Source of the DNA: Candidatus Shapirobacteria bacterium
GTDB lineage: Bacteria; Patescibacteriota; Microgenomatia; UBA12405
Direction: 5' to 3'
DNA length: 64,000 nucleotides
Assembly (NCBI GenBank): GCA_016188545.1
Contig: JACPHO010000001.1
Span: forward strand, 483,324 to 547,323
This document shows, in pieces, positions 34,406 through 60,262 of the stretch. The position numbers were made by a program, and so were the translations under genes. The notes beneath the pieces were generated by a model. The model had not been told where the DNA came from. It ran no database searches and saw only the letters and a list, made by a program, of their open reading frames with translations. Position 1 is the stretch's first letter; each line of letters opens with the position of its first letter.

Positions 34406-34406
34406 C

Positions 34407-39869: not shown

Positions 39870-40791
39870 ACTACCAGTTTTATCTGTCATCATTCTCGAT
39901 TACAATGCTCTGACTTATCTTCAGAAATTGTTCGAATCGATATGCCGTTCCGTTTTAACCTCACAAATAGAAGTTATTTTGGTCGACAATGCCAGCGCTG
40001 ACAACTCACTGGAAATACTAAAAAAAACTAAGTACTCACATCCCAAAATTAACTTTAAATATCTCCAAAACGGCCACAATATTGGTTTTGCAGCAGGGAA
40101 TAATCGAGCAGTTGATATTACCGACCCAGCTTCCAAGTACATCCTTTTTCTAAACCCCGACACCTCAGTTGATCCAGATACTTTTCAAGGAATGATCGAT
40201 TATCTTGATAAACACCCCAAAATTGATACTGCCACTTGTCACGTAACTCTAGCGCTCACCGGACAACTCCAGCCAGAATGTCACCGTGGTTTTCCCACAC
40301 CTTGGAATTCGTTTTGTCATTTTTTCTTACCTTTTATGTCTCGACTTTTCCCTAAAGTAGCTATATTTAATGGCTACCTTCTCGGACATCAGGACTATTC
40401 CAAAGTCCAACCTATAGATTGCTGTGTTGGTGCTTTTTACATGCTTCGCCGACCAGTAGGTGATAAGATTGGTTGGTGGAATGAAAAGTATTTTATGTAT
40501 GGTGAAGATCTCGACATCTGTTATAAAGTCAAAAAAGCTGGATATAACTTATTCTTTATCCCGTTTTACAAAATAAACCATTACCAAGGCGTTTCCTCAG
40601 GTATAAAAAAAACCAAGTCAGCCGCTAGTCGCGAGACGCGTGTTCGTTCTACCAAAGCCACCACCAATGCTATGCGAGTTTTTTATCAGGAAAACCTCCT
40701 GGGCGACTATCCAGTATTTATGCACCCAACTATCAAGCTTGGAATCTCATTTTTAGAATTCTATCGGGTCTTTAAAGCCCGTTATTTATAA
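39847..40791 (+). CDS. Glycosyltransferase family 2
   Basis: LSVIILDYNALTYLQKLFESI...VILVDNASADNS. Confidence 0.75.
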   Translation: MKPLPKNKLPVLSVIILDYNALTYLQKLFESICRSVLTSQIEVILVDNASADNSLEILKKTKYSHPKINFKYLQNGHNIGFAAGNNRAVDITDPASKYILFLNPDTSVDPDTFQGMIDYLDKHPKIDTATCHVTLALTGQLQPECHRGFPTPWNSFCHFFLPFMSRLFPKVAIFNGYLLGHQDYSKVQPIDCCVGAFYMLRRPVGDKIGWWNEKYFMYGEDLDICYKVKKAGYNLFFIPFYKINHYQGVSSGIKKTKSAASRETRVRSTKATTNAMRVFYQENLLGDYPVFMHPTIKLGISFLEFYRVFKARYL

Positions 40792-40792
40792 A

Positions 40793-41923: not shown

Positions 41924-41982
41924 CCGACATTCTACAACTGGTTAAATAAAAAATATAATATGACTTATTATTCTTTTTAACA

Positions 41983-43068
41983 TTGAACAAATTAAAAATT
42001 GCTATTTTTTATGATTGGTTAAATAACTGGGGAGGTGCCGAGCGTGTCCTTTTAAATCTATTAACTCTTTATCCACAAGCCGAAATATATACTCTAGTTC
42101 ACGATCCCAAGAAAACATCATGGCTACCGAGTCATTTTAAAATTCACACATCATTTTTAAACAAACTGCCCTTTTCTAAAACAAATCCAATTTTTTACAC
42201 ACCTCTATACAACTTTGCCATCGAACAATTTGATTTTTCATCATACGATATTGTCATCTCCACTACCACTACAGTCGGCCATGGCCTACTAACTTCTCCT
42301 CAGACTTTGTTTGTTTGTTACTTTCATAATATAAACCGTTATGTCTACTACACACCCGGAGTTTACCAACTCCTCATCCCACTTTTGGCTTTATATAAAA
42401 AAATTGATCAAGTCCTAATTCGTCGCCCAGATGCCTATTTTTGCAACTCTCAAACAGTCGCAAAAAGGCTCCAAAAGGCTTACGGTATCAATCCAATCAT
42501 CATCAATCCTGGCATCAATCTATCCCACTTTACCACTCCCTTGGTTAAGTCAAATTCAGAATCTTATTTTCTAATTGTCGGCCGCCAAGTACCCCATAAA
42601 AAAATTGATATCGCCATCAAGTGTTTTGAAAATAATCCGTCATTGAAACTTATCATCGCAGGTTCCGGACGTGATCATTCCCGACTGACAAAGCTAGCTT
42701 TGCGTTGTCGAAACATTCAATTTATAGACCAACCGTCAGACCAGGAACTCTTGAATTTGTATCAAAACGCTTCGGCCTTAATTTGTCCCCAATATGAAGA
42801 TTATGGTCTTACTCCTATCGAGGCTCAGGCCTGTGGCACACCTGTAATCGCTTACGGGAGGGGAGGCAATCTTGAAACAACTATTAAAAATAAAACCGCT
42901 GTCTATTTTTACCACCAAACCCCAGTATCGCTCCAAATTGCTATTAAAAAATTTCAACAAAAACGATTTGATCCCTTTGTCTGTCAACAGAACACACTTA
43001 GGTTCACCGATAATACATTTATGCTAAACTTTAGCGACCAACTACAAAAACTATGGACAAAAAAATGA
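41983..43068 (+). CDS. Glycosyltransferase family 4
   Basis: MNKLKIAIFYDWLNNWGGAERVLLNL. YGLTPIEAQACGTPVIAYGRGGNLET. Confidence 0.7.
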   Translation: MNKLKIAIFYDWLNNWGGAERVLLNLLTLYPQAEIYTLVHDPKKTSWLPSHFKIHTSFLNKLPFSKTNPIFYTPLYNFAIEQFDFSSYDIVISTTTTVGHGLLTSPQTLFVCYFHNINRYVYYTPGVYQLLIPLLALYKKIDQVLIRRPDAYFCNSQTVAKRLQKAYGINPIIINPGINLSHFTTPLVKSNSESYFLIVGRQVPHKKIDIAIKCFENNPSLKLIIAGSGRDHSRLTKLALRCRNIQFIDQPSDQELLNLYQNASALICPQYEDYGLTPIEAQACGTPVIAYGRGGNLETTIKNKTAVYFYHQTPVSLQIAIKKFQQKRFDPFVCQQNTLRFTDNTFMLNFSDQLQKLWTKK

Positions 43069-44150
43069 ACCATTACATTCTGATTATGTGTGGTGGTAGT
43101 GGCCCCAGGCTTTGGCCTCTCTCCCGCGCTACCCGTCCCAAACAATTCCTCCAACTTTTCGGTGATAACTCACTTATTAAAGATACCTACAACCGTTTTA
43201 AGAAATTTATTCCTGTCAAAAATATTTTTTTTATAAGTCATCAAAAATACCTCGAAGAACTCAAGCAAGAGTTTGGCAAGTCAGTCCCTAGTCAAAACTA
43301 TATTTCCGAGCCAGAGAAAAAGAATACTGCGATGGCAATACTTTATGGGACCACAATAATAAAAAAGCTCAATCCCAACGCAGTCATCTCAGCAGTACCC
43401 TCTGACCACTTCATTAAACAGGGGAGTAACTTTCAAAAAGACCTAAGTAAAGCAGCTAAAATCGCCACTGACACCGACAATATTGTCACTATCGGCATCC
43501 ACCCCACATATCCCAATCCTGGATTTGGTTATATTTTACATGGCTCCGGTAAAACCGAACTTCAAACAGTCAATCGTTTTGTCGAAAAACCATCTGTTAT
43601 AGATGCGCAGATTCTTATCCGCAAAGATGCTTTTTGGAATTCTGGTATGTACACTTTTAGACCAGATGTACTTATCCAGGAACTACACACTCACTCACCA
43701 GAATACCGACCGATTATTGATGCCCTAAACATTTCTACTTCAGTCGTTACCGCCCGAAAAATTTACAAACTCTCACCCACATTAGCTATCGACAAGGCAG
43801 TCTCAGAAAAGACCAAAAACCTAGTCATCTTCAAAGCATCTTTTGACTGGAGCGATGTTGGCGAGTGGAATGCCATCTGGCAACATCTCCAACCCCAACC
43901 AGAAGGCTTAAGCCTTCTAAACAATCAAGGAAATTATGTGTCAGTAAATAGTAAAAACTGCCTTGTCTACGGCGACAAGAAGAAATTAACGGGACTAGTT
44001 GGACTAAATAATTTAGCAATCATTGATACCCCGGACAGCCTGTTAGTTTGTAACCTCCATGATAGTTTTTCGGTACGTGAACTGGTTAAAAAAATTGTCG
44101 AGGACCCTAAGTTAAAAAAATATTTTTTGACAAATTATGACCGCAAATAA
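43053..44150 (+). CDS. manC: Mannose-1-phosphate guanylyltransferase (GDP-mannose pyrophosphorylase)
   Basis: ILIMCGGSGPRLWPLSRATRPKQFLQLFGDNSLIKDTYNRF matches the ManC/CpsB N-terminal nucleotidyltransferase signature. Confidence 0.8.
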   Translation: MDKKMNHYILIMCGGSGPRLWPLSRATRPKQFLQLFGDNSLIKDTYNRFKKFIPVKNIFFISHQKYLEELKQEFGKSVPSQNYISEPEKKNTAMAILYGTTIIKKLNPNAVISAVPSDHFIKQGSNFQKDLSKAAKIATDTDNIVTIGIHPTYPNPGFGYILHGSGKTELQTVNRFVEKPSVIDAQILIRKDAFWNSGMYTFRPDVLIQELHTHSPEYRPIIDALNISTSVVTARKIYKLSPTLAIDKAVSEKTKNLVIFKASFDWSDVGEWNAIWQHLQPQPEGLSLLNNQGNYVSVNSKNCLVYGDKKKLTGLVGLNNLAIIDTPDSLLVCNLHDSFSVRELVKKIVEDPKLKKYFLTNYDRK

Positions 44151-44823
44151 TCCCCAAAAACCATTCTATAAGACGAGAATATTTCTTTTTAACGTCGCCA
44201 AGAGAACCATCGACATTATCTCTTCCATCCTAGTACTCACTTTACTGTCTCCTATACTAATTGTCGTGGGAATACTTATTCGACTTACTTCAGAAGGGCC
44301 AGCACTACTTCGTCAAAGACGAGTCGGCAACAATGGTGAATTTATAATGTACAAATTCCGATCCATGTACAACGGCTCCAAATATAAAAATGATATGGAC
44401 GCTTTTCTAAGAGACAACTATCCCGTACTTTGGGAACAATATATCCGTGACGACTGGAAACTACCAATCAATATTGATCCACGGATTACACCTATCGGTA
44501 AGTTTATCCGTAAAACATCAATAGATGAAATGGCCCAATTCATCAATGTTCTAAAAGGCGAAATGAGCTTAGTCGGCCCCCGAGCTTACCGCAAAGAAGA
44601 ACTCGAACAATATGAGAAAAAATATCCAAATGCCAAAGCAAATATTGCCATAATTCGTACTGCCAAACCAGGCATAACTGGCCTCTGGCAAACGTCAGGT
44701 CGCAACGACATGAGCTTCGAACAACGAGCCCAACTCGATGCCAACTACATTAAGAATCGATCCATGCGACAGGAGATATTCATCATCTTCAAAACTCCCT
44801 TTAAAATGATCTCCAGCTGGTAA
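44137..44823 (+). CDS. Undecaprenyl-phosphate sugar-1-phosphate transferase (initiating bacterial sugar transferase, WbaP/PglC family)
   Basis: Single N-terminal TM helix, then EMSLVGPRAYRKEEL...KPGITGLWQTSGRNDMSFEQRAQLDANY. This is the conserved PHPT catalytic domain. Confidence 0.85.
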   Translation: MTANNPQKPFYKTRIFLFNVAKRTIDIISSILVLTLLSPILIVVGILIRLTSEGPALLRQRRVGNNGEFIMYKFRSMYNGSKYKNDMDAFLRDNYPVLWEQYIRDDWKLPINIDPRITPIGKFIRKTSIDEMAQFINVLKGEMSLVGPRAYRKEELEQYEKKYPNAKANIAIIRTAKPGITGLWQTSGRNDMSFEQRAQLDANYIKNRSMRQEIFIIFKTPFKMISSW

Positions 44824-44851
44824 AATCCTCTTTTTTTCTATAAACTAGACT

Positions 44852-46852
44852 ATGACTGATATTCCTCCCATCATTAAAAGCAGTGCTCCGGAAGCTAGAA
44901 TCCCAGCAACTACATCTACTGCTACACCTTATAGTTCACCATTGGACATGTCAAAGAATACCAAAAAAACGAACAAAGCTCTGAAGATTTTCATATCTGT
45001 CCTTTCTGTTCTTTTAATAGTGATCACCATAGCCGGTACTGCCGGGTTCTTTTTAGTTTATGTTCCTGGTAAAAAACTTTATTCCCAAGCCATGGACCTC
45101 AAAGAGGATGCCAAATTACTCCAAGATGCCGTAGCCCAAAAAGATTTAAAGAAAACCCAAACCGAAATCGACAATCTCAAAAACAAAATCAAATTACTCG
45201 ATGTTTCACTTAGTCGTTTTGCCTATCTTTCCGCTATTACTCGTGCCAAAGATTATTACGCCGATGCCAAGCGAATGATCTCAGTTAGCCTTGAAGGCCT
45301 TGATACTGGTACAGTACTTATTCAAACCATTGAGCCATACCAAGACTTTTTAGGTCTCAAAGGAACAGCCACTAGCAGTGCCAAAACCACCGAAGACCGG
45401 ATAACATTTCTGACCAACTCAATTGAAAGTTTGGTACCACATCTTGATACTATCGACAAGAAAATATCAAACATCACCACTACTTTAGAAGAAATTGATA
45501 TCAACCGCTATCCTACTGAGTACCAAGGAATTGCTATTCATGACAAGTTCAATCAGTTAACATCCACCTTAGAGCTAGTTAAAAAATATTTGGACAACGG
45601 AAAACCAATTCTTTCCAAGACCTCATGGCTCTTAGGTAAAGACAAGCCTCGTAGTTACTTAGTTATCTTCCAAAATGAGGGGGAGCTCCGACCTAGCGGT
45701 GGATTTTGGACTGCATACGCGACCATTAAAATGGACAAGGGTAAGGTTGTCCCAGGTCCAGCCAGTAACATCTACGATCTTGATGACAAGCTCCAATCTG
45801 TAGTCCCAGCCCCTCGTCTAATCAAGTCTTATCATATCAACGTACCTTACCTTAACCTTCGCGATAGCAACCTTTCCCCTGATTTTCCAGTCGATGCCAA
45901 GATATTCTTAGAGACGTACTACAAAACAATGGGTAAAAAGGACACCTTCGATGCTGTCGTCGCCCTTGACACCAATGTCTTAGTCGACCTAGTCAGTGTA
46001 CTTGGAAAACTTGATACTCGTGTCGGTACATTTACCACCGAACCTGATAAGCGTTGTGACGGCTGTCCTAAGATTATCTATGACCTTGAGTGGATTTCCG
46101 GAAGACCCCGTAACTATATCGAGAAAAACCGAAAAGACTTCTTAGCACCACTGATGCAAGCCTTACTTAGCAATGCGCTAGGTTCTGAGAAAACTAAAAT
46201 CCCACTTCTAGGCGAAGCATTTTTCAATAATGTCAATGAAAAACACATCCTCTTCTACTTCCCAGATGAAGAACTCCAAAAGTCAGCCTCTCTCATCAAT
46301 ATCACTGGTAATATCACTCAAAGTGATGCCAACACAGATTATTTCCATCTGAACGATGCCAACTTTGCCTCTGCTAAAAGTAATATTTTTATCAGACAGA
46401 AAATAAAACATGAGATTACTGTCACTGGTGACAAAGTCGAACACAAAGTAACTACGACTTACACCAACCCTAGCGCTGGCTCAAACTGCAATCTTGAAAA
46501 AGGTGACTTATGTCTTAACGCTCCCAAGTACCGCGACCTCTTCCGTTTCTATGTACCCAAAGGTAGTGAGCTGATTAAGATGACCGGATCTGAAGTGGAA
46601 CCACTAGTCTACGAAGAACTTGGCAAAACAGTCTTTGAAGGCTTTTATGGAGACAAATATCCTCTCTATGCCAAGTCGAGTAGCAAGACGACAGTAAACT
46701 ACAAAAGTAGTGTCAAGATGTCACCTAGTTACAGTCTATTGCTCCAAAAACAACCAGGCACAAAACCCATCGACTATGAAGTCTGGGTCAACGGCAAACA
46801 AAAGGATACTTTTGTGTGGAACAGTGACAAGACACTCAAAATTACTCCCTAA
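44852..46852 (+). CDS. Large membrane-anchored extracytoplasmic protein of unknown function (DUF4012-like)
   Basis: 666 aa. N-terminal TM helix at residues 50-75, coiled-coil segment, large soluble domain. The DUF4012 assignment is from memory of the architecture only. Confidence 0.35.
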   Translation: MTDIPPIIKSSAPEARIPATTSTATPYSSPLDMSKNTKKTNKALKIFISVLSVLLIVITIAGTAGFFLVYVPGKKLYSQAMDLKEDAKLLQDAVAQKDLKKTQTEIDNLKNKIKLLDVSLSRFAYLSAITRAKDYYADAKRMISVSLEGLDTGTVLIQTIEPYQDFLGLKGTATSSAKTTEDRITFLTNSIESLVPHLDTIDKKISNITTTLEEIDINRYPTEYQGIAIHDKFNQLTSTLELVKKYLDNGKPILSKTSWLLGKDKPRSYLVIFQNEGELRPSGGFWTAYATIKMDKGKVVPGPASNIYDLDDKLQSVVPAPRLIKSYHINVPYLNLRDSNLSPDFPVDAKIFLETYYKTMGKKDTFDAVVALDTNVLVDLVSVLGKLDTRVGTFTTEPDKRCDGCPKIIYDLEWISGRPRNYIEKNRKDFLAPLMQALLSNALGSEKTKIPLLGEAFFNNVNEKHILFYFPDEELQKSASLINITGNITQSDANTDYFHLNDANFASAKSNIFIRQKIKHEITVTGDKVEHKVTTTYTNPSAGSNCNLEKGDLCLNAPKYRDLFRFYVPKGSELIKMTGSEVEPLVYEELGKTVFEGFYGDKYPLYAKSSSKTTVNYKSSVKMSPSYSLLLQKQPGTKPIDYEVWVNGKQKDTFVWNSDKTLKITP

Positions 46853-52309: not shown

Positions 52310-53587
52310 ATGACCCCTCAAACTGTAAAGATCTATATTCAAAAACTCAAAAATATTTTTTGGCATTTACCTAAAAGTATTTTTTTTAATTTTTACTATG
52401 GTTTTCCTTCCCGGAAACTCACTTTAGTTGCTGTAACCGGAACCGACGGAAAGACCACTACAGTCAACCTCCTTCATGAACTTCTACTCCAGTCCGGTGT
52501 AAAGGTGGGTTCTATATCTACCCTAGGCGCCAAGATTGGCGAAAAAAATACTAGCGTCGGTCTTCACACCACCTCTCCCGATTCCAAAGTTGTCCAAGAG
52601 ATGTTTAAGAAAATGGTGGAGCAGGGCATTACTCATGCAGTTATTGAAGTCACTGCGCACGCCATCGACCAATATCGTTTTTGGGGGTGTCACTTTGAAG
52701 TTGCTCTTATAACCAATACTTCACACGAACACTTAGACGACTTTTTTGATATGGCTCATTACATTAGTACTAAAGCTAAACTGTTTACCCAAGCTACTCA
52801 CAACATCCTCAACAAGGACGACCCATCATACAAAGTAGTTACCGACCTAAATCCTAAAAATCTAACAACTTATAGTACAAAGGAAAAAGCAGACTATAGA
52901 GCTGCAGAAATAAAGCTAACTCCCACCAAATTAAGTTTTTATATCAACAAAACCCTAATCAATACTGATAGTAACTATCTTTACCAGGTATCAAATATCC
53001 TGGCCGCCTTCGCAGCCGCAAATATTTTAAATATATCCGTAGAAATATTTAAAAAAGTAGTCCGTCAATTTCCGTCAATGCAAGGCCGTCGTGAAGAAGT
53101 TAAAAACGATCTTGGTATCCGTTGTATAGTTGACTTTGCCCACACCCCTGCAGCCATCTCATCTACTCTTGAAACTATCCGAGCCACTTCTAAGGGTAAA
53201 AATATAATTATATTCGGAGCTACTGGTGGACGAGACCAAAGTAAGCGGCCGATTATGGGAAAAATTGTCTCCGAACTTGCCGATATTGCCATTATAACCG
53301 CCGACGACACTCGTCATGAAAAGATAGAAGTAATCAACAAGCAAATTATTAGCGGTATCGATCAATCTCGTGTAAAAAGTAAGAAATTCAGTTACCACAA
53401 CATTCCTGGACGTCAGGACGCATTTAACTACGCCCTAAAGATAGCTCAACCAGGTGATACTGTCATTGCCTGTGGCAAGGGACATGAAAACACCATTCTT
53501 CACGGCAATACTGAGTACCCCTGGTCCGAGTCCGAAGCTTTTAGAACTGCCCTACGTCATCGCAATCAAAATAATGGCAACATATAA
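52310..53587 (+). CDS. murE: UDP-N-acetylmuramoyl-L-alanyl-D-glutamate--diamino acid ligase MurE with atypical specificity motif
   Basis: LVAVTGTDGKTTT P-loop. Position after ftsI. The DNPR/DDPx specificity motif region reads ITADDTRHE. Confidence 0.7.
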   Translation: MTPQTVKIYIQKLKNIFWHLPKSIFFNFYYGFPSRKLTLVAVTGTDGKTTTVNLLHELLLQSGVKVGSISTLGAKIGEKNTSVGLHTTSPDSKVVQEMFKKMVEQGITHAVIEVTAHAIDQYRFWGCHFEVALITNTSHEHLDDFFDMAHYISTKAKLFTQATHNILNKDDPSYKVVTDLNPKNLTTYSTKEKADYRAAEIKLTPTKLSFYINKTLINTDSNYLYQVSNILAAFAAANILNISVEIFKKVVRQFPSMQGRREEVKNDLGIRCIVDFAHTPAAISSTLETIRATSKGKNIIIFGATGGRDQSKRPIMGKIVSELADIAIITADDTRHEKIEVINKQIISGIDQSRVKSKKFSYHNIPGRQDAFNYALKIAQPGDTVIACGKGHENTILHGNTEYPWSESEAFRTALRHRNQNNGNI

Positions 53588-54167
53588 CCTCGACCAACTT
53601 CCAACCATCGACCAATCTTATGAGCAAGGGATGCTTCCCCAAAGAAATGATAAAACAAAATTCTATAAAGACACCAGTGGGCGCTGCAATCTAGCCAACT
53701 ATTCACTAAGTTCAGAAAACCGGCGTATTCTTCGCAAAACCGATCAATATACCTGCCGCTCTCTTCCGCTTTGCGAGTTTGAATATACCCCTTTAATACA
53801 AAAACAAATTTATAATTGGATAAAATTACTCGGCTGGGATTTTCCCATAAGCTCAGTCAAGACTATTTTTAACTCTCATATCTTTAATCATCTGGACATT
53901 TGGCAAGATGGCGAAAAAGTTATCGCCTACTCTATTTGCTACACTTCACCTCACATCTCTCACATTGCCTATGTCTTCTACGACCCACAATACTCCCACG
54001 GGGACTTACCAATCAGACTAGTCCTCCAATTCGTCATCAATAGTTACGAACAACATCGTAAGTACTGCTATTTAGGAAGATTTTCAGGCGAGGTCGGTTA
54101 CTATAAAAGGAACATGCCCGGATTCGAACACTTTCAAGACGGTGTTTGGGTAAAGTTTAAAAAATAA
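53574..54167 (+). CDS. Arginyl/leucyl-tRNA--protein transferase-like (ATE/Bpt C-terminal domain) protein
   Basis: HISHIAYVFYDPQYSHGDLPIRLVLQFVINSYEQHRKYCYLGRF matches the ATE_C consensus (...YxFYDP...LG...L..I.....YLYLGY). Start set at MATYNL, overlapping the murE end. Confidence 0.45.
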   Translation: MATYNLDQLPTIDQSYEQGMLPQRNDKTKFYKDTSGRCNLANYSLSSENRRILRKTDQYTCRSLPLCEFEYTPLIQKQIYNWIKLLGWDFPISSVKTIFNSHIFNHLDIWQDGEKVIAYSICYTSPHISHIAYVFYDPQYSHGDLPIRLVLQFVINSYEQHRKYCYLGRFSGEVGYYKRNMPGFEHFQDGVWVKFKK

Positions 54168-54168
54168 T

Positions 54169-55476
54169 ATGAGAATTCACATACTGGCTATTGTCGGAAA
54201 AATGACAACACCGTTGGCTGTCGAACTTCAGAGATTGGGTCACACTGTCACCGGTTCTGATCAAGATAAAATATATCCACCAGCTAGTACCACTCTAGAA
54301 AAAAACTCCATATCAGTAAACACCAGGACTATCGATAAAAATATAGATCTTGTTATAGTCGGTTCTTCTTATACTCACTTTACAAGATGCGTCCAAGAGT
54401 TAGCGCAAGCCAAAAAACTTGGTATTCCTTTTATTCCAGCAACTGAATATTTAGCGAATATGCTAGTCAAACAAAATTCAATTGTCGTGGCCGGGTCTTT
54501 CGGCAAGACGACCATAACAGCACTCCTAGCTTTTCTTTTTGACAAACTAGGACTCGATCCAAGCTATTGTTTTGGCGAAAAAATAATCAACAACCTTCCC
54601 TCAGTTCACTCCTCAAATTCAGACTGGTCAATTATTGAAGGCGACGAGTCTATCAACGGTCTCGACACAAAAGCAAAATTCTTTTCATACGGTCCAAAAT
54701 ATCTCATTCTCACTTCAGTTGGTTGGGAGCACAAAGATTCTTATCCGACCCAGGAAGCCAACCAGCAGGCATTTTCAGACCTACTAAGTTTAGTCCCTCC
54801 TGATGGGATAGTTGTCTACAACCCAGAGGATAGTGGCATAAATCAGATTTTTTCTTCCACAAAAGCTACTACGGTTCCGTACGAAAATTTTAGTTTCGAT
54901 ACTTCACTTATTGGTATGCACAATAATCAAAACATTCGTGCCGCCCTTACCCTTATTAAGGCATTAAAACTTGACCTCCAAAGGGCAATCGAATTAATAC
55001 CCACCTTTTTGGGAGTAGAACGACGACTCCAAATTATTTCCAAAACTTCAAACATAACAATAATAGATGACTACGCTCAGTCTGCCATCAGAGTTAACAC
55101 AGCCATAAATTCCATTCGCGAAACTTTTCCATCAGCTGCTATAAAAGTTTTTTTTGAACCTCACGCCTCATTTCTCCAAAGTGTTTCCGGTTTGAATGGT
55201 TTCAAAGATGCTTTTTCTACATGTTCAGAAGTTATACTTTCCCAAATTAATTATCGCAAATCCATAAAAGGTGACCGAGTTACTGCACGTAGTTTTACTG
55301 ATGAGATAGGGGATTCACTCAAATACATTCCCATCTACGAGGACATATTCCAGCATTTTAAGAATTCACTAAAACCAGGTGATATTTTAATTCATTTTAG
55401 TTCAGGAGGTCTTGATGGACTCAATACGCTAAAGCGTCTAGTCTCCCACTTCAACCCTGAAATACCATATACTTAA
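54169..55476 (+). CDS. Mur ligase, Mpl/MurC-like (UDP-N-acetylmuramate--L-Ala or --tripeptide ligase)
   Basis: MRIHILAIVGKMTTPLAVELQRLGHTVTGSDQDKIYPPASTTLEK is close to the E. coli Mpl N-terminus (MRIHILGICGTFMGG...GHEVTGSD...YPPMSTLLEK). P-loop VVAGSFGKTTIT. Confidence 0.7.
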   Translation: MRIHILAIVGKMTTPLAVELQRLGHTVTGSDQDKIYPPASTTLEKNSISVNTRTIDKNIDLVIVGSSYTHFTRCVQELAQAKKLGIPFIPATEYLANMLVKQNSIVVAGSFGKTTITALLAFLFDKLGLDPSYCFGEKIINNLPSVHSSNSDWSIIEGDESINGLDTKAKFFSYGPKYLILTSVGWEHKDSYPTQEANQQAFSDLLSLVPPDGIVVYNPEDSGINQIFSSTKATTVPYENFSFDTSLIGMHNNQNIRAALTLIKALKLDLQRAIELIPTFLGVERRLQIISKTSNITIIDDYAQSAIRVNTAINSIRETFPSAAIKVFFEPHASFLQSVSGLNGFKDAFSTCSEVILSQINYRKSIKGDRVTARSFTDEIGDSLKYIPIYEDIFQHFKNSLKPGDILIHFSSGGLDGLNTLKRLVSHFNPEIPYT

Positions 55477-55484: not shown

Positions 55485-56519
55485 ATGATTCATCTTTACC
55501 TAGGACTTCTCTTATTCTCTTTCCTCACCAACAGCATTTTGGTGATTCCTTTCATCAACCTTCTATATAAACTAAAATTTCAACGACAAGAACAAACCAC
55601 TCTTGATTTTCAAAACAAGCACACCACAGTCTTTGACAAATACCACAGCCAGAAGTCAGGCACTCCCGTTGGAGGAGGACTGTTAATTATTTTTACAGTA
55701 TCTGTCCTATTCGCGTTCCTATTCCCAATTCTCAAGTTTTCCAACATTTATATTTCCAGTAACTACAAAATAGACAACGAAATTCTGATCATTTTTTTTA
55801 CTTTTGTCAGTTTCGCTGTTCTAGGTTTATACGATGATGTTCTAAAATTTTTTAACTTCGAAAAAACGGGATTCTTTGGGCTAAAAATGTTACACAAGTT
55901 GATACTCCAAATACTTCTTGCCTTCTCGATTTCTGTCTACCTTTATCTTAACTTGGGCATAAGTTTTGTATATATCCCCTTTGTTGGAGCAGTTGCTCTG
56001 GGTTGGTTTTCTGTACCGCTCTATACAATAATTATTGCCGGATTCGCCAACTTTTTCAATATTAGTGATGGACTCGACGGTCTTTCCTGCGGTCTACTAA
56101 TGATTGCCCTTTTTGCCTTCTGGTTTCTTTCCAATGCCTCCCTTGATACACCCATCTCTTTATTTTTAGCTCTATGGCTTGGCGCGCTTATCGCTTTTTT
56201 ATATTTCAATATTTATCCAGCCCGCATCTGGTTAGGAGATGTTGGCTCACTTTCATTTGGTGCCACATTTGCCCTCATCGCAATTATTCTGGGTAAACTC
56301 GTCCCTCTAATGATTGTCGGCGCCCCTTTTATTATTGAAGGCTTAAGCAGTGCCGTTCAGATAATTAGTAAAAGCTACTTTCATAAAAAGATTTTTCCAG
56401 CAGCGCCCATCCACCTAACACTTCAGAAAAACGGCTGGGAAGAGCCAAAAATTGTTTTTAGAGCTTGGCTTGCCGGTATAATATTAGCTATTTTTGGTCT
56501 ATGGCTGGGGATAAATTAG
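55485..56519 (+). CDS. mraY: Phospho-N-acetylmuramoyl-pentapeptide transferase MraY
   Basis: NFFNISDGLDGLSCG (NxxNxxDGxDGL), DDVLKF, about 10 TM helices. Confidence 0.9.
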   Translation: MIHLYLGLLLFSFLTNSILVIPFINLLYKLKFQRQEQTTLDFQNKHTTVFDKYHSQKSGTPVGGGLLIIFTVSVLFAFLFPILKFSNIYISSNYKIDNEILIIFFTFVSFAVLGLYDDVLKFFNFEKTGFFGLKMLHKLILQILLAFSISVYLYLNLGISFVYIPFVGAVALGWFSVPLYTIIIAGFANFFNISDGLDGLSCGLLMIALFAFWFLSNASLDTPISLFLALWLGALIAFLYFNIYPARIWLGDVGSLSFGATFALIAIILGKLVPLMIVGAPFIIEGLSSAVQIISKSYFHKKIFPAAPIHLTLQKNGWEEPKIVFRAWLAGIILAIFGLWLGIN

Positions 56520-57043
56520 CGCTTCTAAAACTGGAAATCCAAAAATATCTTGGTATTCCTTATTTCACCAATAAGGGTAAATTTAAAACAACTGGTTCTA
56601 ATGTTTTTGTTGGTAAAGGCACAGCCAAAGAAATTGCTCTGGAAACAATCAATTTAGCCAATCAACAAAATATTAAACTATTGGAACTATCCGCCGACCG
56701 CATCTATAATTTTCAGAAAAAAAACCACCTTGGCATCGATTGTTCTGGTTTAGCGTGCCATTTGCTCAATTTTTATTTCGATACCAAATTAGACCCACGC
56801 CGCACATCTGCACAGATGCTGACCTCATCGCCACTTTCACAAGAAATTGAAGACCCCACAACCGGCGACCTAGTCCAACAAAAGAACGGTAAGCATCTAT
56901 TGTTTATCGTCGAAAAAGACGGCAATATAATCAACTATATCGATAGTAGTTTCGAAGGCAGAGGAGTTCGTTACGGGAGTTTCAATATCAACAACCCAGT
57001 TTTCAAACACGACGGTTTTTTCCGTCTACTTCTCCTCAATTAG
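56501..57043 (+). CDS. NlpC/P60 family peptidoglycan endopeptidase
   Basis: LGIPYFTNKGKF and GIDCSGLACHLLNFYF match the catalytic Cys motif GxDCSGL. Downstream His in GKHLLF. Start uncertain: the first in-frame Met after mraY is used. Confidence 0.55.
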   Translation: MAGDKLALLKLEIQKYLGIPYFTNKGKFKTTGSNVFVGKGTAKEIALETINLANQQNIKLLELSADRIYNFQKKNHLGIDCSGLACHLLNFYFDTKLDPRRTSAQMLTSSPLSQEIEDPTTGDLVQQKNGKHLLFIVEKDGNIINYIDSSFEGRGVRYGSFNINNPVFKHDGFFRLLLLN

Positions 57044-57193
57044 TTCGCGATAAGTCAAGGGTTCTAAAGATTGTATTTCTACTTCAGTTCCACACTCACT
57101 ACATTCCAAAATATCACCAACTACCATTCCCTCAATTTGAGGTATTTCACTATTACAATCCGGACAAGTAATTTTTAAGTTCGCATCAGCCAT
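57029..57193 (-). CDS. LysW-like zinc-ribbon amino-group carrier protein (55 aa)
   Basis: Reverse-strand translation: MADANLKITCPDCNSEIPQIEGMVVGDILECSECGTEVEIQSLEPLTYRELIEEK. Matches the LysW core CPxC...GE(L/I)(V/L)xCxxCGxE(L/V)E(V/I)xxL(D/E)PL. Below the 60-aa threshold of the ORF track. Confidence 0.55.
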
Positions 57194-57226
57194 AATTATT
57201 GGTTAAAATATAACTAAACCTATTAT

Positions 57227-58027
57227 ATGACACCACTCAATTGTTTTGACGATATCTATTTTAAACGTGAAGACGAGTCAGTTACTGGCTCCGCCAAAGA
57301 TAGAGCCATTCCTTATCAGATCGACAACTTAATCGCCCAAGGGTTCTCATCTGCAGTAATTTCTTCCACTGGAAATGCTGCTATTGCTGCACAATATTAT
57401 TGCAATCTAAAAAAGATTCCCTTAACCGTGTTTGTTTCTCCTCACACACCCCAGTCCAAACTCTCCCTTATTAATAATTACCAAACAACACTTAAACCAG
57501 TTTCCGATGCCATTAAGTACTCCAAGGCTAATAAAAGCTACTTACTACGCCAGTCAACTGACGAGTCGGCACTAATAGGGTATAGCTATCTTGGTAGTGA
57601 AATTATTGAACAAGTACCCGATGTTACCAGTATCTTTTTCCCCGTGGGAAGTGGGGCCACTTTAGTTGGAGTATCTTCTGCAATACCTAAAAATGTCAAA
57701 ATATTTGCCATCCAATCTGCTTACAACTGTCCCATTACTAAAGAACTTGACCCTGGCTTTATCCAAGAACCTATTAATATAACCGACGCCCTAACCGCCA
57801 AATATGTCCCACTCAAACCACGTGTACATAATGTTCTGAAAGCCACTGGTGGAACGGGACAAGTTGTATCAAATCAAGAAATCATGGATGCTCAAAATAA
57901 GCTAGAAAGTTTTGGGGTGCGCTGTTCTTATGAAGGGGGACTAACCTTAGCTGGGCTATTCAAAGCAAAATCCTTATTTGATATCGGACCAAAACCACTA
58001 GTTATTATCACTGGCACCAAAAGATGA
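57227..58027 (+). CDS. PLP-dependent fold-type II enzyme, cysteine synthase (CysK/CysM)/threonine synthase-like
   Basis: YFKREDESVTGSAKDRAI matches the PLP-lysine motif of CysM (NPAGSVKDRAA). Gly-rich loop FFPVGSGATLVG. At 266 aa it is shorter than typical members. Confidence 0.6.
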   Translation: MTPLNCFDDIYFKREDESVTGSAKDRAIPYQIDNLIAQGFSSAVISSTGNAAIAAQYYCNLKKIPLTVFVSPHTPQSKLSLINNYQTTLKPVSDAIKYSKANKSYLLRQSTDESALIGYSYLGSEIIEQVPDVTSIFFPVGSGATLVGVSSAIPKNVKIFAIQSAYNCPITKELDPGFIQEPINITDALTAKYVPLKPRVHNVLKATGGTGQVVSNQEIMDAQNKLESFGVRCSYEGGLTLAGLFKAKSLFDIGPKPLVIITGTKR

Positions 58028-59151
58028 CCAAGATTGAAAATTATTTAAATACCCTCCCTTACCACTTTTATTTTTTGGTGGTCGATAACTTTCTAGATAT
58101 CAATCTACCAAATCTAACTAACTTCGTCTCGATATCGCCAAAAACACTTGGCATCCAGCTTGAACAAAAAAATTCTGGCAGATTGCTTTCCCATCCCGAG
58201 TGCATCAGTTTCATAAAAACTCACACCCCCAAAGGACTTACCCCAGCAATTATTCCATTTAAACCATCACCAAAGATTGATCTGGTCTGTCAACAGAACG
58301 GTTGGGTTAACATCAGCAATCCCAGCAAATTAAATCGTTTTTTCGAAGACAAGATCCTGTTTTCAAAACTATTAGACGAACACTTCCTCCCCCAAATACC
58401 TCACACTATCACCACTTTTACAAAAGACAATTTCGCGGTCGCACAGGAGCAGTATGGCTCCTTGTTAGTAGTCCAGACCCATTTTGGTTGGGCGGGCAAT
58501 AGCTCCCACCTCTCCGATGACTTTAGTAGCTTATCGACCAAAATTGCTATTGATACTCCTATAAAAATATCTCCATTCCTCACCGGCACTTCTCTAATAA
58601 ATAACTGCTGTCTTACTCCACAAGGTCTTGTCCAAAGCCCTCCAGGACTTCAGTACACCGGTATCTCTGCTTTATCTAAAAATCCACTTGCTACCACCGG
58701 CCGACAATGGCCTTCGCACTCGGGCTCTAATATTAATGACCAGATTAAAAAAATAACCATCAATTTTAGTGAAGTTCTAAAATCCAAAGGCTACTTAGGT
58801 TTTTTTGGGTTAGATTTTTTTGTTAATGAAGACAAAGTTTTTTTGTTGGAATGTAACCCAAGGCTAACTGCTTCTTTTTCCTTCTATACTGCAATAGAAA
58901 AAAATAGTAACTATGAACCCCTATTTTTTTATCACCTGCTTTCATTTTTACCCAGCACTTATCCCATAAACCAAATTGAACAAAACCGACGGTTCACAGA
59001 CTCTACTATTGTTGGTTCTGAAATAACCCTCAAGAGTGAAGAGGGGAATACCATCAAAAAATACAACGCCTTTATAGACTTTGCACCTGAAGGTGACCCT
59101 ACAAAAATTGATCAAATAGTTTTGAGTGAGGTACTAAATGAAGTCATCTAA
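58024..59151 (+). CDS. ATP-grasp superfamily ligase of unknown specificity
   Basis: GFFGLDFFVNEDKVFLLECNPRLTASF is the ATP-grasp C-terminal catalytic motif (ExNxR). The central SLLVVQTHFGWAGNSSHL is a probable ATP-binding loop. No Ddl N-terminal motif. Confidence 0.6.
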   Translation: MTKIENYLNTLPYHFYFLVVDNFLDINLPNLTNFVSISPKTLGIQLEQKNSGRLLSHPECISFIKTHTPKGLTPAIIPFKPSPKIDLVCQQNGWVNISNPSKLNRFFEDKILFSKLLDEHFLPQIPHTITTFTKDNFAVAQEQYGSLLVVQTHFGWAGNSSHLSDDFSSLSTKIAIDTPIKISPFLTGTSLINNCCLTPQGLVQSPPGLQYTGISALSKNPLATTGRQWPSHSGSNINDQIKKITINFSEVLKSKGYLGFFGLDFFVNEDKVFLLECNPRLTASFSFYTAIEKNSNYEPLFFYHLLSFLPSTYPINQIEQNRRFTDSTIVGSEITLKSEEGNTIKKYNAFIDFAPEGDPTKIDQIVLSEVLNEVI

Positions 59152-60262
59152 GTTCATTTTTTTAGTATCCATATTATTAACAATTGGGCTGGTTTTTATT
59201 TCAATCTCTTCCATAACTGAAGCCAGTAATACTGTTGGAGACAAATTCTTTTTTATAAAAAAACAGCTCCTTTGGTCACTCGTTGGGGTTGCCTCTTTTA
59301 GCCTTGCCTCCACCATTCCCTTGTCCCTCATCAAAAAATTTGCCACGCCTTTATATATAATCTCCACTGCCTTGCTTGCAATTATCTTAATACCCAGTCT
59401 GAGTAACAGCGCTTTAGGTGCGAGGCGGTGGTTGGATCTGGGAATAGTTGGCATACAACCATCTGAAATATTTAAGCTTGCTGCTATTATTTTCTTCGCC
59501 AACGTTTTTTCTCAAGAAAAATACCGCCATCTAAAATATCTAGTTTTATTTTTAACCGTTCCACTTTCATTAGTTGTTCTCGAGCCAAATATGAGCACTG
59601 CTATTCTTATAGCTGCCATTACCATTACTATTTTCTATTTAGCCAATGGCAACCTCACTAGCATTATTGCGATTTGTTCTGTAGCCATGATGATCAGCAC
59701 TCTGCTAATCGTTATTTCTCCATACCGCAAAGCCCGTTTTGACCAAACTTCGTATCATTCAAATCAGATGACTCTCACTCTCACTTCAGGTCAGTTGGCC
59801 GGTAAGGGCTTTGCAAACTCAGATCAAAAATATCGTTATCTACCCAAAATATCTACTGATTCAATTCTTGCTGTTATCGGCGAAGAAACCGGCTTCATAG
59901 GAGTTAGTTTGATAGTAGGTTTGTATTACATCTTAGTTAGTGACATTTTTACTCTCAGTACTTTTCAGGTCAAATATAGTTTTAAGTACCTACTGATACT
60001 GGGCATTGGCTGTTGGATTGCCTACCAAAGTCTTATCAATATGGCCACAGTAGTTTCTCTCATTCCACTCACCGGAGTCACCTTACCACTTATTTCATAT
60101 GGAGGATCATCCCTGATAACTATTCTTTTTGGGCTTGGTCTCATCAACAACTTGATATACTCAACTAGATATGAAGATCAGCAAGACCATCATCATAACC
60201 GGAACTCATCACACACCAGCTATCGAGCTCATAAACCATCTCAAAAAAGATCCGGAAGTTAA
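59138..60262 (+). CDS. ftsW: SEDS family peptidoglycan glycosyltransferase FtsW
   Basis: About 10 TM helices. KQLLWSLVG...GARRWLDLG...ISTDSILAVIGEETGFIG. Confidence 0.85.
   Translation: MKSSKFIFLVSILLTIGLVFISISSITEASNTVGDKFFFIKKQLLWSLVGVASFSLASTIPLSLIKKFATPLYIISTALLAIILIPSLSNSALGARRWLDLGIVGIQPSEIFKLAAIIFFANVFSQEKYRHLKYLVLFLTVPLSLVVLEPNMSTAILIAAITITIFYLANGNLTSIIAICSVAMMISTLLIVISPYRKARFDQTSYHSNQMTLTLTSGQLAGKGFANSDQKYRYLPKISTDSILAVIGEETGFIGVSLIVGLYYILVSDIFTLSTFQVKYSFKYLLILGIGCWIAYQSLINMATVVSLIPLTGVTLPLISYGGSSLITILFGLGLINNLIYSTRYEDQQDHHHNRNSSHTSYRAHKPSQKRSGS

What the first reader, a model, noticed from the sequence alone, without database searches (positions are those of the whole stretch)
57029..59151. 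LysW-like carrier protein, CysK-like PLP enzyme and ATP-grasp ligase inserted in the dcw cluster between mraY and ftsW
Canonical dcw clusters have murD between mraY and ftsW. This locus instead carries an unannotated 55-aa ORF on the minus strand whose zinc ribbon matches the LysW/ArgW amino-group carrier proteins almost residue for residue (CPDC...GDILECSECGTEVEIQSLEPL). It is divergent from a fold-II PLP beta-replacement-type enzyme (GSAKDRA lysine motif, CysM/SbnA-like) and an ATP-grasp ligase (ECNPR). LysW-type carriers are loaded by RimK/LysX-type ATP-grasp ligases. CysM-like enzymes can use protein carriers (CysO) or O-phosphoserine (SbnA, making a 2,3-diaminopropionate precursor). Inference: a carrier-protein-based route to a non-canonical (di)amino acid, or an ATP-grasp side-chain ligation for the peptidoglycan stem peptide, encoded where the cell needs it. 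The LysW-like protein ends in -EEK rather than the canonical C-terminal Glu, so the mechanism may differ.
Basis: partly seen in the sequence, partly recalled or inferred. Interest (0 to 1): 0.85.

Follow-up and report, generated by a model that had tools for sequence, protein, structure and literature searches.

The report
LysW-like carrier module at murD slot
A group of ultrasmall (CPR, Microgenomates) bacteria carries, where the cell-wall gene murD normally sits, a conserved and uncharacterised four-gene set: a tiny LysW-type carrier protein ending in lysine, an ATP-grasp ligase, a PLP enzyme and a cytoplasmic P60-type peptidase. It probably makes or installs a cell-wall peptide building block by a route not described before.

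Summary
The 55-aa minus-strand ORF (57026-57193) is a real gene under purifying selection. It is a LysW-fold zinc ribbon (Pfam PF21344 above threshold, 50% identical to Thermococcus LysW). It is divergent from a fold-II PLP enzyme and an ATP-grasp ligase, between mraY and ftsW. The order mraY, P60-like, lysW(-), PLP, ATP-grasp recurs in 61 of 61 related genomes, and ftsW follows in 77 of 77.

- The PLP enzyme is not specifically CysK/SbnA-like.
- The ATP-grasp is neither LysX/RimK-type nor Ddl. Its nearest folds are biotin carboxylase, PurK, amino-acid and peptide ligases, BesA and PylC.
- A cytoplasmic NlpC/P60 homologue is a fourth member. It is fused to the ATP-grasp in some lineages, as is the PLP enzyme.
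- The carrier's C-terminal -E-E-K is a hallmark, with K in 91 of 91 genes.

In other Microgenomates the module wraps a divergent MurD. In that MurD's nearest relatives the same slot holds glutamate racemase.

Best reading, inferred at about 0.35: the module processes stem-peptide residue 2 on a carrier. L-Glu is tethered to the carrier lysine, racemised and released as D-Glu. The small protein is not a LysW equivalog. I found no description of this module.

The parts
56501..57043 (+). Cytoplasmic NlpC/P60-like cysteine peptidase or amidase, about 180 aa from the conserved ATG. The mechanical ORF starts at TTG 56465. This is the fourth member of the module.
   Evidence: Pfam PF00877 gives E=7.5e-4 for the window protein, below the gathering score, but 21 of 29 family members match, best 1.8e-6. 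The GIDCSG cysteine and a G-x-H histidine are invariant and align with the Spr/MepS catalytic residues. No N-terminal hydrophobic segment is visible (read from the sequence). It precedes lysW in 61 of 61 loci. Canonical P60 domains are fused to the ATP-grasp in P0299 and P0314.
57026..57193 (-). LysW-fold zinc-ribbon protein, 55 aa, net charge about -10, with four Cys and a C-terminus of ...ELIEEK. Proposed carrier protein.
   Evidence: PF21344 38.5 bits, above the gathering score of 27. TIGR01206 31.3 bits, below the cut-off of 53.2. PDB LysW hits at 7.8e-7 and 2e-6. Coding signature by codon position. C-terminal K in 91 of 91 distinct genes and E-E-K in nearly all, including lineages only about 45% identical.
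57227..58027 (+). Short (266 aa) fold-type II PLP enzyme with the Schiff-base lysine in GSAKDR, an S-S-T-G-N-A-A loop and an invariant R-Q-S-T-D motif.
58024..59151 (+). ATP-grasp ligase of a distinct, uncharacterised family, 375 aa, with Mg/ATP motif E-C-N-P-R.
55485..56519 (+). mraY, upstream boundary of the slot (context).
   Evidence: PF00953 E=2.2e-28.
59138..60262 (+). ftsW, downstream boundary (context). Its start overlaps the ATP-grasp stop by 14 bases.
   Evidence: PF01098 E=2.1e-77. ftsW follows the ATP-grasp in 77 of 77 loci.

Best explanation
The locus is a four-gene module (P60-like peptidase, LysW-fold carrier, fold-II PLP enzyme, ATP-grasp ligase) built into the peptidoglycan-precursor operon of Microgenomates. 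It serves stem-peptide position 2, the D-glutamate step.

Proposed mechanism. The anatomy is shown; the chemistry is inferred.
1. The acidic zinc-ribbon protein is a carrier whose working group is the epsilon-amine of its invariant C-terminal lysine. Canonical LysW uses a C-terminal glutamate carboxyl instead.
2. The ATP-grasp phosphorylates a side-chain carboxyl of a free amino acid, most likely the gamma-carboxyl of L-Glu. It joins it to that lysine, as PylC acylates Lys-N-epsilon and BesA makes gamma-glutamyl amides.
3. The tethered residue keeps a free alpha-amino acid end, which fold-II PLP chemistry requires. The PLP enzyme inverts it from L to D, as PLP-dependent Ser and Asp racemases do.
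4. The P60-like enzyme belongs to a family whose classic bond is gamma-D-Glu-Lys/DAP. It cleaves the isopeptide, releasing D-Glu for MurD and regenerating the carrier.

The net effect is an ATP-driven, stereo-gated replacement for glutamate racemase. In genomes without murD the module may hand D-Glu on more directly.
For: Shown:
- The module is real and fixed. mraY, P60, lysW(-), PLP and ATP-grasp occur in that order in 61 of 61 loci, and ftsW follows in 77 of 77, among 124 relatives found in GTDB species genomes.
- The four genes belong together. They stay adjacent when the set lies outside dcw (L085, L087, L089 and about 20 metagenome contigs).
- Natural fusions exist: ATP-grasp with P60 (P0299, P0314), and PLP with ATP-grasp (P0300, L063).
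- The tail is functional. C-terminal K occurs in 91 of 91 genes and EEK in nearly all, across lineages about 45% identical.
- LysW fold.
- Link to position 2. In one arrangement a divergent MurD (TIGR01087 153-188 bits, below the cut-off of 212) sits inside the module, between P60 and lysW, on every contig long enough to show it. In the window and in L088 the module fills the canonical murD slot (mraY to ftsW). L088, and L086 with a different arrangement, hold murA, murB, a murC-like gene, ddl and murF (plus murE in L086) but no murD. In the nearest relatives of that divergent MurD, the mraY-murD slot holds glutamate racemase: L125 by profile (TIGR00067 220 bits, above the cut-off of 147), L111 and L127 by tblastn.
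- No murI occurs in the window or in any module locus.

Inferred:
- Fold-II PLP enzymes need a free alpha-amino group, so a carrier-bound substrate must be held by a carboxyl. That explains Lys replacing Glu at the tail.
- The loop residue aligned with the serine-racemase si-face base is Ser or Thr in all members (S-[ST]-G-N).
Against: - No step has been tested biochemically.
- The PLP enzyme cannot be assigned a reaction. Threonine synthase, dehydratases, racemases and beta-replacement enzymes are equally close, and S/T-G-N also occurs in CysK and threonine synthase.
- A plain racemase would be enough to make D-Glu, so the need for a carrier, ATP and a peptidase is argued, not shown.
- A fold-II PLP glutamate racemase is not known.
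- Whole genomes could not be read, so the absence of murI, murD or dat from module-bearing genomes is unverified. A paper on one complete Microgenomates genome only says that peptidoglycan pathways are 'essentially complete' (PMC7143001).
- The positional argument (murI slot versus module slot) is circumstantial.
- The ATP-grasp could instead extend the C-terminal carboxylate, or act on free substrates.
Confidence: 0.35

Rival explanations
1. The enzymes act on free substrates. The PLP enzyme is a racemase or other amino-acid-modifying enzyme acting on a free amino acid. The ATP-grasp ligates the product onto a peptidoglycan precursor side chain or another amino acid, like the Enterococcus D-aspartate ligase Aslfm with its racemase, or a Ddl/VanA-type dipeptide ligase. 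The zinc ribbon is only an accessory or scaffolding subunit.
Against: This does not explain the residue-level invariance of the -EEK end (91 of 91 K), which in LysW proteins is the working part. It does not explain a cytoplasmic P60 peptidase fused to the ligase. Bona fide Ddl co-occurs, so the ATP-grasp is not Ddl.
Confidence: 0.2
2. The carrier acts as nucleophile (CysO/CysM- or SbnA-like; the first reader's idea). The PLP enzyme forms an aminoacrylate from O-phosphoserine or O-phosphohomoserine. The carrier's lysine epsilon-amine, or a group the ATP-grasp installs on the tail, adds to it. This builds a non-canonical diamino-dicarboxylic acid for the stem peptide, which the P60-like enzyme then releases.
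Against: If the product includes the encoded lysine, the carrier is consumed once per product, which is implausible for bulk cell-wall synthesis. The comparative link is to MurD and MurI (position 2), not to MurE or diamino acids. Similarity to CysM and SbnA is no better than to dehydratases and racemases.
Confidence: 0.12
3. MurD bypass or salvage. The ATP-grasp, like an L-amino-acid ligase, makes a free dipeptide such as L-Ala-D-Glu (or a longer peptide), with D-Glu supplied by the PLP enzyme. The Mpl-like MurC homologue loads the peptide onto UDP-MurNAc. The P60-like enzyme trims scavenged host muropeptides, in an LdcA-like role.
For: The MurC-like ligase scores almost equally as MurC and Mpl (235 against 221 bits in L086; 204 against 154 in the window), all below the cut-offs. 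No murD occurs in the type A and B clusters. The ATP-grasp resembles dipeptide-forming ligases. MepS-type P60 enzymes have LD-carboxypeptidase activity (names).
Against: In the arrangement outside dcw the module is tied to a MurD-like ligase rather than to the Mpl-like one. There is no role for the invariant carrier tail. murE is retained.
Confidence: 0.12
4. Reversible tail modification with a regulatory role. The ATP-grasp adds residues to the acidic C-terminus of the zinc-ribbon protein, as RimK does on S6 or tubulin tyrosine ligase on -EE. The papain-like P60 enzyme removes them, as vasohibin does. The modification modulates a division or cell-wall protein.
For: The combination of an acidic tail, an ATP-grasp and a cysteine peptidase mirrors those cycles (established knowledge). 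The ligase-peptidase fusions resemble glutathionylspermidine synthetase/amidase.
Confidence: 0.08
5. Ordinary LysW/ArgW amino-group carrier pathway for lysine or arginine/ornithine biosynthesis that happens to lie in the dcw cluster.
For: LysW-fold match.
Against: Below the LysW equivalog cut-offs (31.3 against 53.2, and 26.7 against 75). The C-terminus is Lys, not Glu. The ligase is not LysX or ArgX. The called genes and profile hits at these loci include no LysZ, LysY, LysJ or LysK.
Confidence: 0.02

Closest known systems
LysW/ArgW amino-group carrier protein system (Thermus, Sulfolobus, Thermococcus; Streptomyces AmCP pathways)
   Same: A small, very acidic Cys4 zinc-ribbon protein of the same fold (PF21344; 50% identity to Thermococcus LysW over 46 residues). 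It has a flexible, conserved C-terminal tail and is encoded next to an ATP-grasp ligase and tailoring enzymes.
   Different: The tail ends in invariant Lys, not Glu, and is about five residues shorter by my reading of the alignments. The ligase is from a different ATP-grasp clade, not RimK/LysX. There is no LysZ, LysY, LysJ or LysK. The partners are a fold-II PLP enzyme and a P60 peptidase. The context is peptidoglycan precursor synthesis. Canonical LysW holds the substrate's amino group, whereas here the chemistry implies holding a carboxyl.
CysO-CysM-Mec+ (Mycobacterium) protein-bound cysteine synthesis
   Same: A small carrier whose C-terminus is the reactive group, a fold-II PLP enzyme acting with it, an ATP-using activating enzyme and a dedicated hydrolase that releases the product.
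   Different: CysO is a ubiquitin-like beta-grasp protein with a Gly-Gly thiocarboxylate. Its activator is an adenylating enzyme and its protease is a JAMM metalloenzyme. No sulfur chemistry is indicated here.
Glutamate racemase MurI with MurD (canonical D-Glu supply and addition)
   Same: Same genomic slot. The module lies between mraY and ftsW or wraps a MurD-like ligase, and relatives have mraY-murI-...-murD-ftsW. The proposed product (D-Glu) is the same.
   Different: MurI is a single cofactor-independent enzyme. The module has four proteins and uses PLP, ATP and a carrier. The functional equivalence is inferred, not shown.
Lys-N-epsilon and gamma-glutamyl forming ATP-grasp ligases: PylC, D-aspartate ligase Aslfm, BesA, PGM1-type peptide ligases
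   Different: There is no detectable sequence relationship beyond the fold. The proposed acceptor here is a protein-borne C-terminal lysine.
Glutathionylspermidine synthetase/amidase and the RimK or TTL-vasohibin cycles
   Same: An ATP-grasp-type ligase paired, and sometimes fused, with a papain-like cysteine amidase acting on the same amide bond. The target tail is acidic.
   Different: Those systems lack a PLP enzyme and a zinc-ribbon carrier and have no cell-wall context.

Membership tests
LysW/ArgW amino-group carrier protein | Cys4 zinc-ribbon globular domain of the LysW fold | tested here: met
   PF21344 38.5 bits against a gathering score of 27. PDB LysW 5k2m_E at E=7.8e-7 and 3wwl at 2e-6. 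Four Cys conserved.
LysW/ArgW amino-group carrier protein | Scores as a LysW equivalog (TIGR01206 / NF041070) | tested here: not met
   31.3 bits against a cut-off of 53.2, and 26.7 against 75.
LysW/ArgW amino-group carrier protein | C-terminal Glu (EDWGE-type tail) whose gamma-carboxyl receives the substrate amino group | tested here: not met
   The tail is ...E-L-[IV]-E-E-K. The terminal residue is Lys in 91 of 91 distinct genes.
LysW/ArgW amino-group carrier protein | Partner ligase of the RimK/LysX/ArgX clade | tested here: not met
LysW/ArgW amino-group carrier protein | Neighbouring LysZ/LysY/LysJ/LysK-type kinase, reductase, aminotransferase and deacylase | tested here: not met
   No gene with a Pfam family of those types among the called genes of L001-L004 and L085-L089, and none among the window ORFs profiled. 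The other loci were mapped only with the window's dcw genes.
LysW/ArgW amino-group carrier protein | Covalent loading of a substrate on the tail | not testable with these tools
   Needs mass spectrometry of the protein after incubation with the ATP-grasp, ATP and amino acids.
CysK/CysM/SbnA beta-replacement PLP enzymes | Fold-type II PLP enzyme with the Schiff-base lysine motif | tested here: met
   PF00291 E=5.9e-38. G-S-x-K-D-R conserved in all homologues.
CysK/CysM/SbnA beta-replacement PLP enzymes | Family-level profile match (TIGR01136 cysKM, TIGR03945 SbnA) or closest structural neighbour | tested here: not met
D-alanine--D-alanine ligase (Ddl) | Ddl profile or domain match, and being the only such ligase in the cluster | tested here: not met
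MurD (UDP-MurNAc-L-Ala:D-Glu ligase) | Mur-ligase three-domain protein between mraY and ftsW | tested here: not met
   No Mur-ligase domain in the three genes. No MurD homologue in the window beyond weak paralogue hits to the murC-like gene.
NlpC/P60 peptidases (for the upstream fourth gene) | Catalytic Cys in a D-C-S-G motif plus a downstream His | tested here: met
   G-I-D-C-S-G and G-x-H are invariant in 29 aligned members and align with Spr/MepS.
NlpC/P60 peptidases (for the upstream fourth gene) | Pfam PF00877 at the gathering threshold | tested here: inconclusive
   The window protein scores 19.9 bits against 23. 21 of 29 members match at E<0.01, best 1.8e-6. Canonical P60 domains are fused to the ATP-grasp in P0299 and P0314.

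The most novel reading that the evidence does not exclude
A LysW-fold protein has been turned from an amino-group carrier into a carboxyl-group carrier. The epsilon-amine of its invariant C-terminal lysine is acylated by a new ATP-grasp family. A fold-II PLP enzyme stereo-inverts the protein-tethered glutamate, and a cytoplasmic P60 isopeptidase releases D-Glu. In genomes without murD, the D-Glu may pass directly into the UDP-MurNAc-L-Ala pathway. This would be a non-orthologous, ATP-driven replacement of glutamate racemase, and possibly of MurD, across a major CPR class. Together with a MurE lacking its UDP-binding domain and a tRNA-dependent ATE/Fem-like transferase, it would indicate a re-wired peptidoglycan precursor pathway.
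Probability: 0.25. Interest if true: 0.9.

Novelty: new variant of a known kind. Interest (0 to 1): 0.77.

Why it matters
Peptidoglycan precursor synthesis (MurA-F, MurI, Alr, Ddl) is regarded as nearly invariant across bacteria and is a major antibiotic target. Here a whole class of uncultivated bacteria places an uncharacterised carrier-protein module in the murD/murI position of the dcw operon.

If the module supplies or installs residue 2, three things follow:
- It would be a new way to make a D-amino acid.
- It would be the first use of a LysW-type carrier in cell-wall synthesis, and the first with a lysine working end.
- It would affect metabolic reconstructions that score CPR genomes for 'missing' murI or murD.

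The proposal is directly testable with four small soluble proteins. It also gives a function-based handle on about 2,000 clusters of unannotated ATP-grasp proteins.

Tried and rejected
- Canonical LysW lysine/arginine pathway. Rejected on profile cut-offs, the tail residue, the ligase clade and the missing partner genes.
- ATP-grasp as Ddl. Rejected because real Ddl and MurF lie next to the module in L086 and L088.
- ATP-grasp as simple MurD replacement. Weakened because a MurD-like ligase co-occurs inside the module in another arrangement.
- Sequence search of the ATP-grasp against PDB found nothing better than E=0.006.
- The promoter/terminator scan around lysW gave fewer promoter-like sites than shuffles, so it is uninformative.
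The afdb50 fold library was unavailable. Multimer prediction was not possible.
- I could not read whole genomes, so the presence of murD, murF, ddl, murI or alr elsewhere in module-bearing genomes is unknown. Extending the source contig upstream showed only glycosyltransferase and radical-SAM genes, and the ftsA look-up found nothing.
- Six literature searches found no description of this module. The library is partial, so this is not proof of novelty.
Full report
**What is in the window.** Positions 49.5-64 kb hold a dcw-type operon on the + strand. In order it contains:
- rsmH
- ftsL
- a PBP transpeptidase
- a MurE-type ligase
- a ~200-aa ATE_C-like protein
- a MurC/Mpl-like ligase
- mraY
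- a ~180-aa NlpC/P60-like protein
- a 55-aa ORF on the minus strand
- a 266-aa PLP enzyme
- a 375-aa ATP-grasp protein
- ftsW, murG, ftsQ and ftsA

 The three ORFs of the finding are exactly where stated, and the quoted motifs are present. Genes are tightly packed. The PLP stop overlaps the ATP-grasp start (ATGA). The ATP-grasp end overlaps ftsW by 14 bases. The lysW-like gene overlaps the 3' end of the P60-like gene by 18 bases and is only 33 bases from the PLP start. It is therefore encoded antisense inside an otherwise unidirectional operon.

**Is the small ORF real, and is it LysW-like?** It is both.
- Pfam Zn_ribbon_LysW matches at E=9.2e-10, 38.5 bits against a gathering score of 27.
- phmmer against PDB sequences finds Thermococcus kodakarensis LysW (5k2m_E, E=7.8e-7) and Thermus LysW (3wwl, 2e-6). 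By my count, 23 of 46 aligned residues are identical to the former.
- Across 75 distinct homologous genes the mean entropy by codon position is 0.54/0.22/1.32, the signature of a protein-coding gene in this frame.

It does not reach the LysW equivalog cut-offs: TIGR01206 scores 31.3 against 53.2, and NF041070 scores 26.7 against 75.

**Conservation.**
- The ATP-grasp has 521 detected homologues. Nearly all named ones are from Shapirobacteria, Woesebacteria or 'Microgenomates group'.
- A scan of one genome per GTDB species found 124 relatives, and I fetched the best 80.
- Mapping the window's proteins onto these loci and four others gives mraY, P60-like, lysW(-), PLP and ATP-grasp in that order and orientation in 61 of 61 loci with enough upstream sequence.
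- ftsW lies immediately downstream in 77 of 77.

**The tail.** The C-terminus ...E-L-[I/V]-E-E-K is nearly invariant among the close homologues. More distant Microgenomates, whose carrier is only about 45% identical, end in ...L-E-E-E-K. Over 91 distinct genes the last residue is always Lys, and 83 of 91 end in IEEK, VEEK or EEEK. In LysW proteins the tail is the working part. Here it is conserved to the residue but ends in an amine-bearing residue instead of the glutamate that defines LysW chemistry.

**The ATP-grasp.** It matches only generic ATP-grasp models:
- PF02655 scores 25.7 bits.
- NCBIfam PRK06524 'biotin carboxylase' scores 86.6 bits against a cut-off of 684.
- The RimK family scores 21.7 bits against a cut-off of 143.

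From established knowledge of these enzymes, the top group phosphorylates a small carboxylate and passes it to an amine on the other substrate. In PylC that amine is a lysine epsilon-amine, and in PGM1 it is a peptide amine. LysX, RimK and TTL instead activate a protein carboxyl.

**The PLP enzyme.**
- PF00291 matches at E=5.9e-38, with the Schiff-base lysine in GSAKDR.
- The best NCBIfam hits are archaeal-type threonine synthases and Ser/Thr dehydratases, all far below their cut-offs. SbnA and CysK models score lower.
- PDB sequence and profile searches put serine racemase, threonine dehydratases and threonine synthase first.
- The AF2 model has pLDDT 91.

The label 'CysK-like' is therefore not specifically supported, and the reaction cannot be read from the fold. 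The loop aligned with the S-S-G-N loop of serine racemases is S-T-G-N-A-A in the window's clade and S-S-G-N-A-A in the other lineages. That is compatible with a two-base racemase but is not diagnostic.

**A fourth member and natural fusions.** The ~180-aa protein upstream is a remote NlpC/P60 homologue.
- 21 of 29 members match PF00877.
- The G-I-D-C-S-G cysteine and a histidine are invariant and align with Spr/MepS.
- No signal peptide is evident.

 An exhaustive profile search with the ATP-grasp alignment found 2,144 cluster representatives at E<=1e-3. Among them P0299 and P0314 are ATP-grasp proteins with a C-terminal canonical P60 domain. P0300 is a threonine-synthase-like PLP domain fused to the ATP-grasp. 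In locus L063 the PLP and ATP-grasp genes form one 609-aa ORF. The functional unit is therefore P60-like, carrier, PLP enzyme and ATP-grasp together.

**Other arrangements and the link to MurD and MurI.** The ~440-aa relatives of the ATP-grasp occur in Gottesmanbacteria, Woesebacteria, CPR3 and other Microgenomates. Three arrangements appear.
- *Type A* (the window): murE, ATE-like, murC-like, (murA), mraY, [module], ftsW.
- *Type B*:
  - L088: ATE-like, murC-like, murB, murA, ddl, murF, mraY, [module], ftsW.
  - L086: murA, murE, ATE-like, murC-like, [P60, lysW, PLP], methyltransferase, murB, [ATP-grasp], ddl, murF, mraY, ftsW.
  - These clusters gather nearly every cytoplasmic peptidoglycan gene except murD and the racemases.
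- *Type C* (L085, L087, L089): P60-like, MurD-like ligase, lysW(-), PLP, ATP-grasp, lying away from dcw.

A metagenome scan with the MurD-like alignment returned 42 loci. Every close relative (47% identity or more, about 20 contigs) is in the type C arrangement. Remote relatives (27-33% identity) are ordinary murD genes in murE, murF, mraY, murD, ftsW, murG, murC clusters. The module-linked MurD scores 153-188 bits on TIGR01087, below the cut-off of 212.

Three of the nearer ordinary relatives (L125, L111, L127) have the order mraY, murI..., murD. In L125 and L111 a PgeF-like gene lies between murI and murD, and ftsW follows murD. The L125 proteins pass their cut-offs: glutamate racemase 220 bits against 147, and MurD 261 against 212. 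No murI homologue occurs in the window or in any module-bearing locus. The window also lacks murD, murF, ddl, murA and murB homologues.

**Interpretation.**

*Shown:*
- A fixed four-gene module with a LysW-fold protein whose invariant feature is a C-terminal Lys.
- Ligase-peptidase and PLP-ligase fusions.
- Constant association with peptidoglycan precursor genes, specifically with the murD position or a MurD-like ligase.
- Glutamate racemase in the corresponding slot of relatives.

*Inferred:* fold-II PLP enzymes act on substrates with a free alpha-amino group. A carrier-bound substrate must therefore be tethered by a carboxyl to an amine on the carrier. That gives a rationale for Lys replacing Glu at the tail, and it fits the structural affinities of the ATP-grasp. 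A side-chain-tethered Glu or Asp leaves racemisation as the natural PLP reaction. NlpC/P60 enzymes classically cleave gamma-D-Glu-Lys/DAP bonds.

The resulting scheme has three steps:
1. ATP-dependent gamma-glutamylation of the carrier lysine.
2. L-to-D inversion of the tethered residue.
3. D-specific release of D-Glu for MurD.

This accounts for all four proteins and for the genomic link to MurD and MurI. I rate the general claim (carrier-based processing of a stem-peptide building block) at about 0.5, and the specific D-Glu scheme at about 0.25-0.35.

Whether module-bearing genomes truly lack murI or murD could not be checked, because only +/-10 kb around each hit is readable. A published complete Microgenomates genome is merely described as having 'essentially complete' peptidoglycan pathways (PMC7143001).

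**Rivals.**
- Free-substrate racemase plus D-amino-acid ligase, with the zinc ribbon as an accessory subunit.
- A MurD bypass, in which the ATP-grasp makes a dipeptide that the Mpl-like ligase loads.
- A RimK/TTL-type tail modification cycle.
- The canonical LysW pathway, which is effectively excluded.

The first does not explain the invariant tail or the fused peptidase. The second would consume the carrier or lacks a link to position 2. The third ignores the tail and the type C arrangement. The fourth leaves the PLP enzyme without a role.

**Novelty.** Six full-text searches combining LysW, amino-group carrier, CPR, Patescibacteria, Microgenomates, Mur ligases, ATP-grasp and peptidoglycan found no description of this module. 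The genes carry only generic names in public records ('ATP-grasp domain-containing protein', 'PLP-dependent lyase/thiolase'). The small gene is not even called in some records, for example L088.

The closest known system is the LysW/ArgW carrier pathway. This locus shares the carrier fold and the carrier-plus-ATP-grasp logic, but it fails the defining features of that family (terminal Glu, LysX-type ligase, LysZ/Y/J/K partners). I class it as a new variant of a known kind. It would be close to categorically new if the lysine-amine carrier chemistry is confirmed.

Noticed in passing
window 52310-53587 (+): The MurE-type ligase passes the TIGR01085 cut-off (324.6 against 257.3) but aligns only from model position ~74-100 onward. 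It lacks the whole N-terminal UDP-binding domain 1. There is no room for that domain, because the PBP gene ends at 52295. The same truncation is seen in relatives (400-461 aa, and L086 at 406 aa).
   Followed up: partly
window 53574-54167 (+): A ~200-aa homologue of arginyl/leucyl-tRNA-protein transferases (ATE_C E=1.5e-4; arginyltransferase NF002346 E=6e-8) lies between murE and the murC-like gene. It is conserved in the same place in type A and B clusters (L086, L088). It is possibly a Fem-like tRNA-dependent transferase acting on the stem peptide.
   Followed up: partly
window 54169-55476 (+): The only full three-domain Mur ligase in the cluster scores as MurC (204 bits) and Mpl (154 bits), both below their cut-offs. 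It sits where murF normally lies. In L086 its orthologue scores almost equally as MurC and Mpl (235 against 221). The 64-kb window has no murF, ddl, murD, murA, murB or murI homologue.
   Followed up: partly
window 57026-57226: The lysW-like gene is antisense inside the operon. It has an 18-base convergent overlap with the P60-like gene and only 33 bases to the divergent PLP start (median 47 bases in relatives). Its promoter must therefore lie within the PLP gene, and the dcw transcript must read through its antisense strand.
   Followed up: partly
P0299, P0314, P0300; L063:1826-3652: Natural fusion proteins occur in other lineages: ATP-grasp with a C-terminal NlpC/P60 domain (634 and 672 aa), a threonine-synthase-like PLP domain with the ATP-grasp (680 aa), and a 609-aa PLP-ATP-grasp ORF in L063.
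   Followed up: partly
L088:8778-8950 (-): A lysW-like ORF (...DPLEISLIEEEK) is present but not among the called genes of that public record. The small carrier gene is easily missed by gene callers.
   Followed up: yes
L125:4810-8011: In a related lineage the mraY-murD interval holds glutamate racemase, a 546-aa amidohydrolase of the PRK09061 family (N-acyl-D-amino-acid-deacylase-like, by my reading of the family) and a PgeF-like peptidoglycan editing factor. L111 has murI and the PgeF-like gene in the same place, and L127 has murI.
   Followed up: partly
window 1-64000: GC skew is strongly negative on the + strand over the whole window (-0.06 to -0.37 per 2 kb), with almost all genes on the + strand. 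This recalls the strand compositional disparity reported for a complete Microgenomates genome (PMC7143001). ARAGORN finds no tRNA gene in the 64 kb.
   Followed up: no
window 28907-46852 and upstream contig (L132): A large envelope-polysaccharide region contains at least nine glycosyltransferases, a hexapeptide acyltransferase, an O-antigen-ligase-like protein, a PMT-like protein, a sugar nucleotidyltransferase, a Bac_transf priming transferase and a DUF4012 protein. Beyond the window start lie several radical-SAM/B12-binding proteins and methyltransferases.
   Followed up: no
L002/L003:7656-7964 (-): In a Woesebacteria-labelled lineage a MazG-like pyrophosphohydrolase gene is inserted directly downstream of lysW on the minus strand, between it and the P60-like gene.
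   Followed up: no
loci L007, L011, L015 and many others: Many GTDB representative records carrying this Microgenomates-type cluster are titled 'uncultured Gammaproteobacteria bacterium'. One protein is labelled Candidatus Methanoperedens and another Clostridia. These are probably mislabelled or mis-binned records.
   Followed up: no
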